64,000 nt of DNA from contig OX597827.1 of NCBI GenBank assembly GCA_951406725.2, positions 73,966,001-74,030,000 of the forward strand, written 5' to 3'. The DNA comes from Octopus vulgaris (Eukaryota). Position 1 is the first letter of the stretch; each line of letters starts with the position of its first letter. Shown here one piece after another: positions 51,255-63,322 of this stretch. The position numbers were made by a program.

Positions 51255-52817
51255 CAAAATGGGACAAGAACGCAAAACATCCAGACAGTCAGGTGATACA
51301 AAAAAGGAGAACAAAAAATTCATATAGACGATACAAAGAAAACAAGGATGGGTCATTCGGAGTTTTCTTTCGTCAGTCGAGTTCCAGATGATCTTTGCAA
51401 TTTCGGCTGGTTATACTCGATATTGCTCCAATCTGGCGAGCCCCAAGGAAAAATACTTATTTTCATATATCTATATGTATAAATAAATATATATATGTAT
51501 AAATATATATATATGTGTGTGTGTGTGTGTTGTGTATGTGTGTGTTTGTGTGTATGTACCAAATCCACTAACAAGGCTTTGGTCAGCCCGACGCTATAAT
51601 AGAAGACATATGCACAACGTGACATGCAGTGGGATTGAAACCGGATCCATATAGTTGGAAAGCAAGCTTCTTACCAAACTATCATTCATTAATAACTCTA
51701 TCACCACTGAACACCATTTGTGATATAGGGAGACGACGTATGCAAAAGATCCTGAAGGAAGTCCTTTGTCAGCTCGTGATTCTCTATAATTATCTATATT
51801 TGATATTTCATCGAATTTTATTTTACGCGAATACTTTCATCTCATTCACTGTGGTTACATTTCATTGATCCACGTTGAAATACAATGAGGAATCAAGTAT
51901 ATACTCATCTCTATCTAGTGTCTGTAATGCTAAAAGAAATAACAATATCTAGCATATTAAGTCATCTATACTATGTCATAAAACTCTTATAATAGCAATT
52001 TATGGCTAACATTGTTTTTATTATTTCAGAATGTCTCAGCGGTAGATTTGGTCGCAATTGCGCAAAGTCCTGTCATTGTTCCCTAACATGTAACCACATA
52101 AATGGATCGTGTCCAGGTGTGTGTGATGCAGGATACACCGGAGACAACTGCCAAGAAGGTTATTTCCAACACCTTTTATTCCAACATTTTAACATTCTCT
52201 ACATTTCAATTAGTGTTTCTTAGCGTAAATCAACTTTCTTATTTATCATCAAAGACTACTTCAACGTTAACTCATAAGTTATGTTTTAAGATAAGATAAT
52301 AAAAAAGCGTATCATTGATGTCTCACATATATTTGTAGAAGAGAACTCTTACAGCCATAACTTTTATTGTGTGGAGCTAATAATATCTAATCTATTGTGT
52401 TTTGTATTAATATTTCCAGAATGTGAAGTTGGTAGATTTGGTAAGAATTGTGGAAGGACATGTCATTGTATCGACGACGAAAACTGCGACAGGATAACTG
52501 GAAAATGCCCAAAAGAATGTTCTGCTGGATATAGAGGCTACTATTGTCAAAAAAGTGTGATATGAAACTATAAAATATTTCATAAAATTATGTTTAAATC
52601 TCTGCATCTGATTCTTACTTTATCTTTCCTTTCATTTAATTAACGTGGTAATGGAGACGCAGACTAACCAGTTTATTTTCCAAACTTACATTCATTAAAT
52701 ACTTCGTGAATTCATATCGAGATATATTGAGATATATGGGTTCTATGCGCTTGTATGTATGCTGTATATATGTATGGATATGTATTTGTACATATACATG
52801 TATATGTATTTATGCAT

Positions 52818-52856
<39 letters not shown>

Positions 52857-58600: not shown

Positions 58601-61600
58601 TCTATGGGTATGGACTCGTACAAAGTTTGAATTGTTTCCAAAGGAAGTTTTGTCCATTCTTCAGCTAAAACAATCTCCATTTCTTGTAGTGATGATATTG
58701 ATATGATGTAGGGTATCCGCTCTTTACATGTTTCAATAAAATGCACAATAAATGTTCAATAATATTGAGATCTGGGGACTGTGGTAACCCGATGAATTTT
58801 TCAACATCACTAGAATGTTTTTCTTGCCATTCAAAAACAACTTTAGCTGTGTGAATTGGTGCATTATAATCCTGAAAGATTGCGTTTCCCTCAGGAAACT
58901 TTTCTGCAACCATATAAGGAATTTGATCAGATAAAATGGTTAAATAGCCTTTACTATTAATTCTGCCACATATTCCTCCATGTTTAACAGTTTGAAGATA
59001 GCAGTCTGGGTCAAATGGTTCTTGCTCCTTTTGGCTCTCTCCAGACGTATACTCAACCGGTTGTCGGAAGTAAGGGAAAGGGTGCTCTAAGGACCAATTC
59101 TGTAGTTTTTTACTCCACTCTAAACGCTTTGCGACGTTTGATTTTGAAAGTAGTCGTTTTCTGATTGTAGCCCTCACGTGAAATCCGGCTTTGTGCAGCT
59201 CCCTGCAAACAGTTTTTTGTGGAAACAGGGTTCCCAATATGGTCATTGAACTCTGCAGTAATTTTGGGAACTGTACTTTTGTGATCCATTCTAACAATTC
59301 GCGTAGGAGTCCCTATCTGAAAGTTTTGGTTCTCTTCCGGAGTTTTATTTCGAAGAGGAGGTTTTTCCCACTTTCTCAAAGGGTGCATTACTTTCAGAAT
59401 AGTATTTCTTGATAAACCAAACATCTCGGCTGTTTTTGTTATGCTAGCACCTGTCATATGAGCACCAACAATACGACCTCTTTGAAAGTCCAATAAATCT
59501 GTTATATTAATGAATTTTGATTACCTTTTTCTAATGGTAACTGAAAAGAAACAGTAATTTTAGCAAGACATATTATGCGACAATAATAAATCAGAAAATA
59601 TATAAAAATAATTTTTTGATGGTTTTTATAGATATTTCAAAATTTTGATGCTATAATAGTAGGCGTTTCCATTATTTTGTCCAACCTCTGTATATATTCA
59701 TCATAGATATAAGGTAGATGAGAATACTTGAAGAAGACATACAGAAATCGATTGAACTAAAGGATAGGCTATAATATCCATGTTAAAAACGTAATTTCCA
59801 TGAGATTAGGTATCATTAACAATCATCATCACCAGTGTACATCCGTTCTGTATGTTGTTAGCCGTTGTGCGATTCTAGGTGTCCCAACCCGGATCCATAT
59901 GGTTGGGAAGCAAGCTTCTTACCAAACTTTCATTCATTGATAACTCTATCGCCATTAAACACAATTTCTGATATAGGGAGAGGACGTATGCAAAAGTTGC
60001 GGAAGGAAGTCGTTTGGCTGCTTGTGATTCTTTATAATTATCTATATTTGATATTTCATCGGATTTGATTTTACCCGAATACTTTCATCTTATTATCTAT
60101 AGTGACATTTCATTGATCCACGTTGAAATACAATGAAGAATCAAGTATATACACATTTCTATCTAGTGTATGTAATGCTAAAACAAATAACAATATCTAG
60201 CATATTAAGTCATCCATACTATATCATAAAACTCTTAAAATAGCAATTCATGGCTAATGTTTTTTTTTATCTCAGAATGTCACAATTGGTAAATTTGGTC
60301 CCAAATGCACAAAGTCCTGTCATTGTAACGCAACATGTAACCACATAAATGGATCGTGTTCAGGAGTGTGTGAAGCAGGATACACCGGATACAACTGCCA
60401 AGAAGGTTATTTCCAATACTTTTTATTCCAACATTTTAAAATTCTTTAGTGTTAAGTATTTAGTGTTTCTTAGCGTAAATCAACTTTCCTATTTATCATC
60501 AAAGACTACTTCAATGTTAACTCATAAGTTATGTTTTAAGATAAGATTATAAAAAAGCATGTCATTGATATCTCTCATATATTTGTAGATGAGAGCTCTT
60601 ACAGACATAACTTTTATTGTGTGGAGCTAATAATATCTAATCTATTGTGTTTTGTATTAATATTTCCAGAATGTGTAGGTGGTAGATTTGGTAGCAATTG
60701 TAGAGGGACATGTCATTGTATCGATGACGAAAACTGCAACAGAATAACTGGAGAATGCTCAGGTGGATGTTCTGATGGATATACAGGATCCTCTTGTCAA
60801 CAAAGTATGATATGAAACTATGATACATTTCTTAAAATTATGTTTAAATCTCTGCATCTGATTCTTACTTTATGTTTCCGTTTATTTCATGATGAGAACT
60901 ATACTGGTTTATAACCAATATATTTTCCAAACTTAGATTCATTAAATGCTTCGTGAATTCATATTGAGATATGTTGGATGCATGCGTTCCTATTTATGTT
61001 GTATATATGTATGGATGTATGTGTATGTATTATTACATATACATATATATGTATTTACGTATATATATTTATATGTGTGTGTGTAAATACATGTATTTAT
61101 ATATGTATATACACACATAATTATGTAACACACTAATATATATATATACGTGTGTGTGTGCGTATACATAAATACAGGGGTTGAACAAAATAATGGAAAC
61201 ATCTTGAAATTTTAAACAAATTATCTTAATATAGGGTAGGACCGCCTTTGGTAGTAATTACACCTTCAAGTCTATGGGGTATGGACTCGTACAAAGTTTG
61301 AATTGTTTCCAAAGGAGGTTTTGTCTATTCTTCAGCTAAAACAATCTCCATTTCTTGTAGCGATGATATTGATATGGTGTAGGGTATCGGCTCTTTACAT
61401 GCTTCAATAAAATGCACAATAAATGCTCAATAATATTGAGATCTTGGGACTGTGGTGACCCGATGAATTTTTCAACATCACTAGAATGTTTTTCCTGCCA
61501 TTCAGAAACAACTTTAGCTGTGTAAATTGGTGCATTATAATCCTGAAAGATTGCGTTTCCCTCAGGAAACTTTTCTGCAACCATATAAGGAATTTGATCA

Positions 61601-63322
61601 GATAAAATGGTTAAATAGCCTTTACTATTAATTCTGCCACATATTCCTCCATGTTTAACAGTTTGAAGAAAGCAGTCTGGGTCAAATGGTTCTTGCTCCT
61701 TTTGGCTCTCTCCAGACGTATACTCGACCGGTGGTCGGAAGTAAGGGAAAGGGTGCTCTAAGGACCAATTCTGTAGTTTTTTACTCCACTCTAAACGCTT
61801 TGCGATGTTTGATTTTGAAAGTAGTCGTTTTCTGATTGTAGCCCTCACGTGAAATCCGGCTTTGTGCAGCTCCCTGCAAAGAGTTTTTTGTGGAAACAGG
61901 GTTCCCAATATGGTCATTGAACTCTGCAGTAATTTTGGGAACTGTACTTTTGTGATCCATTCTAACAATTCGCGTAGGAGTCCCTATCTGAAAGTTTTGG
62001 TTCTCTTCCGGAGTTCTATTTCGAAGAGGAGGTTTTTCCCACTTTCTCAAAGGGTGCATTTCGGCTGTTTTTGTTATGCTAGCAACTGTCATATGAGCAC
62101 CAACAATTCGACCTCTTTGAAAGTCCAATAGAACTGTTATATTAATGAATTTTGATTACCTTTTTCTAATGGTAACTGAAAAGAAACAGCAATTTTAGCA
62201 AGACATATTATGCGACAATAATAAATCAGAAAATATATAAAAATAAGTTTTTGATGGTTTTTATAGATATTTCAAAATTTTGATGCTATAATAGTTGGCG
62301 TTTGCATTATTTTGTCCAACCCCTGTATATATACATCATAGATATAAGGTAGATGAGAAGACTTGAAGAAGACATACAGAAATCGATTGAACTAACGGGT
62401 AGGCTATAATATCCATGTTAAAAACTTCATTTCAATGAGACTAGGTTTCATCATCATCATCACCATTTGACATCCGTTCTGTATGTTGGTAGCCGGTGTG
62501 AGGTTCTTAGTGTCCCAATGAGTGCAGAGGACTGCGCCAAGCTACTGTGTCTGCTTTGGCAGGGTTTCTGTAGCTGGATGCTCTTATTAACATGAAACAC
62601 TTTACAGTGTGTACTGAGCGCTTTTGTGTGAAGCAGGATACACCGGATACAACTGCCAAGAAGGTTATTTCCAATACTTTTTATTCCAGCATATTAAAAT
62701 TCTCTACATTTGATTTAGTGTTTCTTAGCGTAAATCAACTTTCCTATTTATCATCAAAGACTAATTCAACGTTAACTCATGAGTTATGCTTTAAGATAAG
62801 ATAATAAAAAGTCGTGTCTTTGATATCTCACATATATTTGTAGATGAGAGCTCTTACAGCCATAACTTTTATTGTGCGGAGCTAATAATATCTAACCTAT
62901 TGCGTTTTGTATTAATATTTTCAGAATGTGAAGCTGGTAGATTTGGTAAGAATTGTGGAAGGACATGTCATTGTATCGATGACGAAAACTGCGACAGAAT
63001 AACTGGAGAATGCTCAGACGGATGTTTTGCTGGATATAGAGGCGCCTTTTGTCAACAAAGTGTGATATGAAACTATAAAATATTTCATAAAATTATGTTT
63101 AAATCTCTGCATCAGATTCTTATTTTATCTTTCCTTTCATTTAATTAACGTGGTAATGGAGACGCAGACTAACCAGTTTATTTTCCAAACTTACATTCAT
63201 TAAATACTTCGTGAATTCATATCGAGATATATTGAGATATATGGGTTCTATGCGCTTGTATGTATGCTATATATATGTATGGATATGTATTTATACATAT
63301 ACATGTATATGTATTTATGCAT

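What the first reader, a model, noticed from the sequence alone, without database searches (positions are those of the whole stretch)
52030..63059. Tandem EGF exons diversify almost only by amino-acid replacement while adjacent Tc1 DNA stays near-identical: candidate hypervariable recognition receptor
Hand comparison of the sequence gives: B1 vs B2, 10 nt differences in 135 bp across 8 codons, all changing the amino acid; A1 vs A2, 9 nt across 7 codons, all replacements; A2 vs A3, 4 of 4 replacements; B3 vs B4, 10 replacements and 2 silent changes. All 8 Cys are invariant. The 1.2-kb dead Tc1 directly downstream of B1 and B2 differs at only about 7 positions by my count. Inference: diversifying selection on extracellular EGF surfaces, or conversion that homogenises introns while selection keeps exon variants. 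Together with an F-type lectin domain, this resembles a variable immune, allorecognition or gamete-recognition receptor. Oyster bindin is a known precedent for diversification of F-lectin repeats; here the EGF modules are what varies.
Basis: partly seen in the sequence, partly recalled or inferred. Interest (0 to 1): 0.85.

Follow-up and report, generated by a model that had tools for sequence, protein, structure and literature searches.

The report
Tandem EGF exon array, mosaic units
A large animal gene for a secreted or surface protein carries a repeated pair of small EGF-domain exons whose exposed residues vary about twice as much as the surrounding non-coding DNA, which may reflect selection for diversity, but no recognition role has been shown.

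Summary
B1-B2 differ at 10 nt in 8 codons, all replacements. A1-A2 differ at 9 nt in 7 codons. A2-A3 show 4 of 4 replacements. B3-B4 show 10 replacements and 2 silent changes. The Tc1 copies of units 1 and 2 differ at 9 of 1252 positions.

The Tc1 is a poor yardstick. Units 1 and 2 differ by about 8% across the whole 5' kilobase, introns included. They differ by 0.9% from about 80 bp past exon B onward. The units are mosaics made by crossover and gene conversion. Across four units the Tc1 is as variable as the introns (0.128 against 0.11-0.12 per column). No pairwise dN versus dS comparison is significant, and overall omega is 1.7 (p=0.18).

A better comparison still leaves a signal. Loop codons vary at 0.23-0.26 per column against 0.122 in non-coding DNA (p=3e-4 to 3e-5). 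Scaffold codons vary at 0.01-0.02. Columns with three states number 7 of 264 in exons and 1 of 726 in introns.

Exon A4 is frameshifted and A5 is truncated. The F-type lectin domain is real but lacks the fucose-binding His.

Diversification of the EGF loops is moderately supported. A hypervariable receptor role is untested.

The parts
11775..11921 (+). 8-Cys EGF exon, 147 nt, phase 1-1, upstream part of the same gene model
   Evidence: Cys pattern; splice sites and phase read; Pfam EGF_STAB1-2 20.8 bits, below the cut-off of 27
26632..26889 (+). First half of an F-type lectin domain, 258 nt, phase 1-1; Leu where solved F-lectins have the fucose-binding His; AVDGN calcium motif kept
   Evidence: PDB matches FBP32 7e-8, Sm-hPAF 4e-7, eel lectin 1k12 3e-4; Pfam PF22633 29-30 bits, above the cut-off of 27.8; boundaries
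46786..46968 (+). Second half of the F-type lectin domain, 183 nt, phase 1-1
   Evidence: Found by motif; FBP32 5e-4; boundaries; no Pfam hit at E<=0.01 on its own
47764..47907 (+). EGF-like exon, 144 nt, phase 1-1, irregular last loop
   Evidence: EGF_PEAR1L E=0.14 only
51638..64000 (+). Tandem array of five units of about 2.3-2.8 kb (u1 51638-54413, u2 54414-57193, u3 57194-59885, u4 59886-62518, u5 from 62519; cut by the window end)
   Evidence: Repeat families with 2.7-2.8 kb spacing; homology starts at 51638; alignments
52030..52158 (+). Exon A1, 129 nt, phase 1-1
52420..52554 (+). Exon B1, 135 nt, phase 1-1
   Evidence: PDB 6u11 EGF-like protein 2.5e-4
54804..54932 (+). Exon A2
55196..55330 (+). 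Exon B2
57586..57714 (+). Exon A3
57974..58108 (+). Exon B3
60276..60405 (+). Exon A4, 130 nt: a 1-nt insertion gives an in-frame TAA; the 3' part carries variants shared with the A5 remnant
60670..60804 (+). Exon B4, the most divergent B copy
62519..62624 (.). 106 nt with no homology to the other units; replaces about 480 nt of intron plus the first 90 nt of exon A at the start of u5
62625..62663 (+). A5 remnant: the last 39 nt of an A exon, identical to A4, with no acceptor site
62925..63059 (+). Exon B5: like B2 except at three positions that carry the B4 state
52972..54223 (-). Dead Tc1-like element of u1 (type I; left terminal repeat lost to microsatellite-like sequence)
   Evidence: Pfam DDE_3, HTH_Tnp_Tc3_2, HTH_23; span
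55752..57003 (-). Dead Tc1-like element of u2 (type I)
58500..59695 (-). Dead Tc1-like element of u3 (type II), with both terminal inverted repeats (58498-58530 and 59665-59697)
61170..62330 (-). Dead Tc1-like element of u4 (type II)
63510..64000 (-). Dead Tc1-like element of u5 (type I), cut by the window end

Best explanation
The region is the 3' part, as far as the window shows, of one large plus-strand gene. Every exon seen is phase 1-1. In order they are: an EGF exon, an F-type-lectin-fold domain split over two exons 20 kb apart, another EGF exon, and then a tandemly amplified cassette. The cassette is intron, 129-nt EGF exon A, 261-nt intron, 135-nt EGF exon B, then an intron holding a microsatellite and one dead Tc1. 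The Tc1 inserted once, before the amplification, and is a passenger: the four copies that reach its right-hand end (u1-u4) share the same junction there. The cassette was multiplied by unequal crossover, and the copies have since exchanged pieces by crossover and short-tract gene conversion. Different parts of a unit therefore have different nearest relatives. That mosaic, not selection, explains why the Tc1 copies of units 1 and 2 are near-identical while their exons differ by 7%. Within the exons, the Cys/Gly/aromatic scaffold of the 8-Cys (laminin/MEGF/PEAR1-type) EGF fold is under strong purifying selection. The loop residues between scaffold positions vary about twice as much as neutral DNA of the same units, with repeated hits at the same sites and mostly replacement changes. 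The likeliest reading (inferred, not shown) is selection for different EGF surfaces among the repeats of one protein, with conversion shuffling the variants. At least one unit is decaying: A4 is frameshifted and A5 is truncated.
For: Gene model: splice sites and phase 1-1 were read for all exons. The Cys pattern was found in 10 exons. The lectin domain was identified by PDB matches. Mosaic structure: u1-u2 show 80 mismatches in 991 columns of the 5' kilobase against 16 in 1778 columns beyond it. Quartet site patterns switch from 13|24 (15 sites, against 1 for each of the other two patterns) in the two introns flanking exon A, which itself has no informative site, to 12|34 (186 against 2 and 1) from exon B onward. 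In exon B, 24 of 55 informative site pairs fail the four-gamete test, and all three B2/B5 differences carry the B4 state (chance 9e-5). The A5 remnant is identical to A4 over 39 nt, including two A4-specific variants. Scaffold constraint: 0 of 39 variable columns fall in Cys codons (7.1 expected, P=4e-4) and 2 of 39 in scaffold codons (16.8 expected, P=1e-7). Loop excess: 37/144 or 38/168 variable columns against 250/2055 in non-coding DNA (p=2.9e-5 and 2.9e-4). Allowing for base composition, 44 minimum mutations against 18.2 expected; without u4, 29 against 17.2 (P=0.006). Three-state columns: 7/264 in exons against 1/726 in introns (p=6e-4). Codon models: M1a/M2a 2dlnL 13.9, while 6 of 6 intron pseudo-codon controls gave 0-2.5.
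Against: Across the whole exons, dN does not significantly exceed dS: M0 omega is 1.70 (p=0.18), and all 16 pairwise Fisher tests give p>=0.09. Whole-exon divergence equals local intron divergence in u1-u2, u1-u3 and u2-u3 (p=0.6-0.9). B2-B5 has 2 silent changes and 1 replacement. When the null model lets slow sites be slow at silent positions too, support for omega>1 drops to 2dlnL 4.26, p=0.04. Recombination inside the exons breaks the single-tree assumption of the codon models; from recall, this is known to inflate such tests. Much of the exon excess comes from unit 4, whose A exon is frameshifted. Only 9 short exons from one assembled haplotype were available. The codon models are my own code, not codeml or HyPhy. 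There are no transcripts, no other individuals and no other species.
Confidence: 0.6

Rival explanations
1. Neutral concerted evolution. The loops of these EGF repeats are unconstrained (omega about 1), the scaffold is constrained, and the apparent excess is noise plus mosaic genealogy. No selection for diversity is involved.
For: M0 omega is not different from 1 (p=0.18). Pairwise tests are not significant. Whole exons match local introns in three of six unit pairs. Mosaicism is clear. The dual-rate test gives only p=0.04.
Against: Column-by-column state counts do not depend on a tree. They still show loop codons at 0.23-0.26 against 0.122 in non-coding DNA, 1.7-fold without unit 4, and 7 against 1 three-state columns. 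Intron controls do not reproduce the site-model signal (0 of 6).
Confidence: 0.27
2. Exon-limited import. Short conversion tracts from diverged EGF exons elsewhere (further units or paralogous genes) bring clusters of differences into the exons only, because introns of distant paralogues no longer pair.
For: A4 differs from A2 at 7 positions, all in its 3' 75 nt, while the flanking introns are nearly identical between u2 and u4 (about 1% over the upstream intron and the first 200 columns downstream of exon A). Two of those variants are shared with the A5 remnant. B5 carries three B4-like states that B4 itself cannot have donated in one tract. u2-u4 exons differ at 10.6% against 2.5% in the introns.
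Against: Old paralogues should also bring many silent differences at Cys and Gly codons, and none is seen (0 of 39 variable columns in Cys codons). Donors inside the array would convert introns as well. No donor could be looked for outside the window.
Confidence: 0.1
3. The array is a decaying, non-functional duplication or an assembly artefact of a repeat, so the differences carry no functional meaning.
For: A4 has a frameshift with an in-frame TAA. A5 lacks its first 90 nt and its acceptor site. No expression data are available.
Against: 9 of 9 full-length exons keep AG/GT splice sites, and 8 of 9 keep an open phase 1-1 frame. Scaffold codons are almost invariant while neighbouring DNA varies at 12%, which random decay or read errors would not produce.
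Confidence: 0.03

Closest known systems
MEGF / PEAR1 / Draper-type multi-EGF surface proteins (8-Cys laminin-like EGF repeats)
   Same: Same repeat type. The Cys spacing and the G-x-[FY]-G and G-[YW]-x-G positions match. The best Pfam models are EGF_STAB1-2, EGF_laminin and EGF_PEAR1L. The best solved match is an EGF-like domain protein, 6u11. The nearest atlas clusters carry EGF_laminin and EGF_PEAR1L, one is named MEGF6, and Mollusca is the commonest phylum in the top clusters. One exon encodes one repeat, all in phase 1-1.
   Different: No EMI domain, transmembrane segment or cytoplasmic tail lies in the window, so membership in the Draper/MEGF10 family proper cannot be judged. Single exons score below the Pfam cut-offs. 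An F-type lectin fold inside such a protein is not part of the family's description as I recall it.
Oyster sperm bindin (tandem F-type lectin repeats)
   Same: A mollusc extracellular protein with tandem repeats, positive selection on exposed sites, recombination in introns, an intron in the middle of the lectin domain, and microsatellites and a retroelement beside the repeats (review PMC5712786, section 12 read).
   Different: In bindin the lectin domains are repeated and diversify. Here only one lectin domain is seen, it lacks the fucose His, and the repeated, varying modules are EGF exons. Bindin's diversity is shown between individuals and isoforms; here only repeats within one haplotype were seen.
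Drosophila Nimrod family (Eater, NimC1): EGF-like 'NIM' repeat phagocytosis receptors
   Same: Haemocyte surface receptors built from many tandem EGF-like repeats (PMC6852320, passages read). From recall, not from a call: Eater's repeats were reported to evolve in concert.
   Different: NIM repeats have a different Cys pattern (recalled). No evidence here for haemocyte expression or phagocytosis.
Dscam-type arrays of alternative exons
   Same: Tandem arrays of similar, frame-neutral exons that could in principle be chosen alternatively.
   Different: A search for docking or selector-like complementary sequences found only (TA)n microsatellite matches. The units are 2.7 kb and hold two different exons each. 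No transcripts are available.

Membership tests
8-Cys laminin/MEGF-type EGF repeat | Eight Cys in the spacing C-x8-C-x3-C-x-C-x3-5-C-x6-C-x3-C-x8-C, with conserved Gly and aromatic positions | tested here: met
   The pattern was found in 8 array exons and 2 upstream exons. Invariant C and G columns appear in the 10-row alignment. A4 fits only if its 1-nt insertion is ignored.
8-Cys laminin/MEGF-type EGF repeat | Pfam model matched above its gathering score | tested here: inconclusive
   Single exons score 16-21 bits on EGF_STAB1-2 (cut-off 27) and 12-14 bits on EGF_laminin (cut-off 21). Exons were searched one by one, not joined.
Draper / CED-1 / MEGF10 engulfment receptors | N-terminal EMI domain, transmembrane segment, cytoplasmic signalling motifs (features recalled, not from a call) | not tested
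   The gene's ends lie outside the window or were not identified. No search for these parts was made.
F-type lectin domain | Sequence homology to solved F-type lectin folds | tested here: met
   First exon: FBP32 7e-8, Sm-hPAF 4e-7, eel agglutinin 1k12 3e-4. Second exon: FBP32 5e-4. Pfam PF22633 scores above its cut-off.
F-type lectin domain | Fucose-binding motif H-x24-R-x-D-x4-(R/K) (PMC5712786) | tested here: not met
   Leu aligns with the His of FBP32 (SCTLT against SCTHT). The residue two after the first Arg is Gly, not Asp. The two adjacent Cys are absent (read). The Arg of 'NR' is kept.
F-type lectin domain | Calcium-binding motif h2DGx (PMC5712786) | tested here: met
   AVDGN lies in the first lectin exon.
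Tc1/mariner transposon | Terminal inverted repeats, HTH DNA-binding domains and a DDE transposase | tested here: met
   33-nt inverted repeats, 91% complementary, in u3. HTH_Tnp_Tc3_2 at 1e-8 and DDE_3 at 4e-5. The reading frame is broken into several pieces in every copy, so the element is dead.
Genes under diversifying selection | dN significantly above dS or above the neutral rate | tested here: inconclusive
   Whole exons: omega 1.70, p=0.18. Site classes: p=0.0009, falling to 0.04 under a dual-rate null. Loop codons against non-coding DNA: p=3e-4 to 3e-5. Recombination is present.
Hypervariable recognition receptor (allelic or individual diversity) | High polymorphism between individuals or haplotypes; binding to a non-self or partner ligand | not testable with these tools
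   There is one haplotype only, and no population, expression or binding data.
Dscam-like mutually exclusive exon cluster | Docking site and selector sequences able to pair | tested here: not met
   Inverted-repeat scan of 47908-55200: all 19 pairs are microsatellite-like.

The most novel reading that the evidence does not exclude
The array is a diversity generator for a cephalopod or mollusc surface receptor. Conversion among many A/B units keeps reshuffling loop variants, and because every exon is phase 1-1, splicing can include different subsets. One locus would then yield many EGF surfaces, an EGF-based counterpart of oyster bindin or Dscam used for immune, self or gamete recognition.
Probability: 0.1. 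Interest if true: 0.8.

Novelty: new member of a known kind. Interest (0 to 1): 0.4.

Why it matters
If the loop excess holds up across the full array and in other individuals, this locus would show EGF modules, rather than lectin or Ig modules, being diversified in an invertebrate surface protein. It would also allow selection and gene conversion to be separated, because each unit carries its own neutral marker, the dead Tc1. The analysis is also a methodological caution. In a tandem array, one nearby 'neutral' segment can have a different history from the exons beside it, so it can create or hide a selection signal.

Tried and rejected
1. Pairwise Nei-Gojobori dN/dS: no significant pair among 16, so too weak to decide anything.
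2. Structure prediction of exon B from a 10-row alignment of the window's own exons: mean pLDDT 46 and pTM 0.22. The model was unusable, so no fold search was run and variable residues could not be mapped onto a surface.
3. Search for Dscam-like docking or selector pairing: only (TA)n matches.
4. Looking for the second half of the lectin domain just downstream of the first (26300-28100): nothing convincing. It was found 20 kb further on by motif.
5. Literature. No paper holds '6U11' together with 'EGF'. None holds all five terms EGF-like / exon duplication / positive selection / tandem repeats / receptor. The searches on F-type lectin with EGF in molluscs and on MEGF10 expansion gave no described EGF-plus-F-lectin diversified receptor. 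The review does mention a Nematostella protein combining an F-type lectin domain with EGF-like domains.
6. Pseudogene-only reading: rejected because of the scaffold constraint.
No orthologues, no further array units, no organism identification and no transcripts could be checked. Supplementary files of papers were closed and none was consulted.

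
Full report
**What is at the locus**

The window holds no N. From 51638 to the window end lies a tandem array of five units of about 2.3-2.8 kb. Each full unit runs as follows:
- about 390 nt of intron;
- a 129-nt exon A;
- a 261-nt intron;
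- a 135-nt exon B;
- an intron that holds a microsatellite-rich stretch and a dead Tc1-like element on the minus strand.

The Tc1 is identified by HTH_Tnp_Tc3_2 and DDE_3 matches and by 33-nt terminal inverted repeats in unit 3. All nine full-length exons have cag|AATGT acceptors and AAG|gt or AAA|gt donors, and all are phase 1-1. Each encodes one 8-Cys EGF repeat of the laminin/MEGF/PEAR1 kind.

Upstream on the same strand, and also in phase 1-1, lie four more exons:
- an EGF exon at 11775-11921;
- the two halves of an F-type lectin domain at 26632-26889 and 46786-46968;
- another EGF exon at 47764-47907.

I searched these exons one by one. That they belong to one transcript is inferred from strand, order and phase, not shown.

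**Checking the observation**

- B1-B2: 10 nt, 8 codons, 8 replacements.
- A1-A2: 9 nt, 7 codons, 7 replacements.
- A2-A3: 4 of 4 replacements.
- B3-B4: 10 replacements and 2 silent changes.

The Tc1 copies of units 1 and 2 differ at 9 of 1252 positions.

Two facts were missed. Exon A4 is 130 nt: a 1-nt insertion brings TAA into frame. Unit 5 has only the last 39 nt of an A exon, preceded by 106 nt of unrelated DNA.

**Why the Tc1 comparison misleads**

Along the unit alignment, u1 and u2 differ at 80 of 991 columns (8%) in the 5' kilobase. In that stretch the introns (61/727) are as diverged as the exons (19/264, p=0.6). From about 80 bp past exon B to the unit's end they differ at only 16 of 1778 columns (0.9%). 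The change in divergence is therefore not at an exon boundary.

Site patterns among u1-u4 support the grouping 13|24 in the two introns that flank exon A (15 sites, against 1 for each alternative); exon A itself has no informative site. From exon B onward they support 12|34 (186 sites, against 2 and 1).

Inside exon B, 24 of 55 pairs of informative sites fail the four-gamete test. The only three B2/B5 differences all carry the B4 state (chance 9e-5). A site between them does not, so the donor was B4-like rather than B4 itself. A4 equals A2 in its 5' part, and its 3' part carries variants shared with the A5 remnant.

The units are therefore mosaics produced by unequal crossover and short-tract conversion.

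The Tc1 copies fall into two types: u1, u2 and u5 against u3 and u4. The types differ by 11% plus indels. Across u1-u4 the Tc1 is as variable (0.128 variable columns per column) as the introns (0.109-0.121). The four copies that reach the Tc1's right-hand end (u1-u4) share the same junction there. The element therefore inserted once, before the amplification, and is a passenger.

**Is there diversifying selection?**

Evidence against, or neutral:
- No pairwise dN against dS test is significant (16 pairs, p>=0.09).
- A one-ratio codon model (my own implementation, two exon trees with shared parameters) gives omega 1.70, not different from 1 (p=0.18).
- Whole exons are no more diverged than local introns in u1-u2, u1-u3 and u2-u3.
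- B2-B5 has 2 silent changes and 1 replacement.

Evidence for:
- Variation avoids the scaffold. 0 of 39 variable columns fall in Cys codons (7.1 expected, P=4e-4). Only 2 of 39 fall in the 19 codons that A and B share (16.8 expected, P=1e-7).
- The remaining loop codons are variable at 37/144 columns. With a stricter scaffold of Cys, Gly and aromatic consensus positions only, the figure is 38/168. Non-coding DNA of the same units gives 250/2055 (p=2.9e-5 and 2.9e-4).
- Allowing for base composition, loops show 44 minimum mutations against 18.2 expected. Without unit 4 they show 29 against 17.2 (P=0.006).
- Columns with three different bases number 7 of 264 in exons and 1 of 726 in introns (p=6e-4).
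- M1a against M2a gives 2dlnL 13.9 (p=0.0009), with 42% of codons at omega about 5. Six intron windows read as pseudo-codons gave 0-2.5.

Caveats:
- A null model in which slow sites are also slow at silent positions reduces the test to 2dlnL 4.26, p=0.04.
- Recombination within the exons breaks the tree assumption; that this inflates site tests is recalled, not from a call.
- Part of the loop/scaffold partition uses the same sequences it is then tested on.
- Unit 4, with its broken A exon, contributes much of the excess (u2-u4 exons 10.6% against introns 2.5%).

I put diversifying selection on the loops at roughly even odds, and the structural account (array, passenger Tc1, mosaic) at high confidence.

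**The lectin domain**

Both halves match solved F-type lectins: FBP32, Sm-hPAF and eel agglutinin. The calcium motif h2DGx is present as AVDGN. The fucose motif H-x24-R-x-D-x4-(R/K), as given in review PMC5712786 (passages read), is not kept. Leu replaces the His, Gly replaces the Asp, and the adjacent Cys pair is missing.

The review notes that such deviations may mean another specificity or loss of sugar binding. It also mentions a Nematostella protein that combines this domain with EGF-like domains. Only one lectin domain is seen in the window, and it is not repeated.

**Comparison with known systems**

The repeat type is that of MEGF/PEAR1/Draper-like proteins. Family membership proper cannot be judged, because no EMI domain, transmembrane segment or tail was looked for or seen.

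The closest evolutionary analogue is oyster bindin. It has tandem repeats, positive selection on exposed sites, intron recombination, and microsatellites and a retroelement beside the repeats (PMC5712786, section 12 read). In bindin, however, it is the lectin domains that repeat, and the diversity is documented between individuals.

Nimrod-family receptors are tandem EGF-like repeat phagocytosis receptors (PMC6852320, passages read). That Eater's repeats evolve in concert is recalled, not seen in a call.

A Dscam-like choice among exons has no support.

**What stayed unchecked**

- The organism is not identified. The atlas hits point to Mollusca only as a lead.
- The structure prediction of an exon failed (pLDDT 46).
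- Supplementary files of papers were closed and none was consulted.

**Verdict**

The idea that the EGF surfaces diversify is moderately supported by better controls. The receptor role is speculation.

This is a new member of a known kind: a tandem-repeat extracellular gene evolving by amplification, conversion and possibly selection. Interest is 0.4.

Noticed in passing
window 60276-60405: Exon A4 has one extra base near its 5' end, which puts TAA in frame. It is either a dead exon that must be skipped (skipping keeps the frame, since all exons are phase 1-1) or an assembly error.
   Followed up: partly
window 62519-62663: The u4/u5 junction is different from the other unit junctions. Homology to the unit tail stops exactly at the canonical unit boundary. 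Then come 106 nt of unrelated DNA and only the last 39 nt of an A exon. This suggests a separate duplication event with its breakpoint inside exon A.
   Followed up: partly
window 52972-53010, 55752-55790, 63510-63550: The type I Tc1 copies (u1, u2, u5) have lost the left terminal inverted repeat that u3 and u4 keep. The sequence there is microsatellite-like.
   Followed up: partly
window 26890-46785: The intron that splits the F-type lectin domain is about 20 kb. It is filled with mobile elements: a LINE with endonuclease and reverse transcriptase on the minus strand (28706-31594, RVT_1 7e-31) and a Pif1 2B-domain fragment typical of Helitron-like elements (44052-44438). Oyster bindin also has an intron in the middle of each lectin domain (PMC5712786).
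   Followed up: partly
window 3043-4530: A 495-aa open frame on the plus strand has a weak GIY-YIG match (E=0.003, below the cut-off), possibly the tail of a Penelope-like retroelement.
   Followed up: no
window 50574-51251 and 38601-39125: Very long pure microsatellites: (TA)340 just upstream of the array start and (ATT)175 further up. Each array unit also carries TA/TG-rich tracts between exon B and the Tc1, and that stretch is the most variable part of the unit (0.28 variable columns per column).
   Followed up: partly
window 47764-47907: The EGF exon just before the array has an irregular last loop, and its Cys spacing departs from the other nine exons. It matched Pfam only weakly (EGF_PEAR1L E=0.14).
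   Followed up: no
window 21336-24015: A second LINE-like element lies on the minus strand (zinc knuckle and an endonuclease fragment), inside the intron between the first EGF exon and the lectin exon.
   Followed up: no
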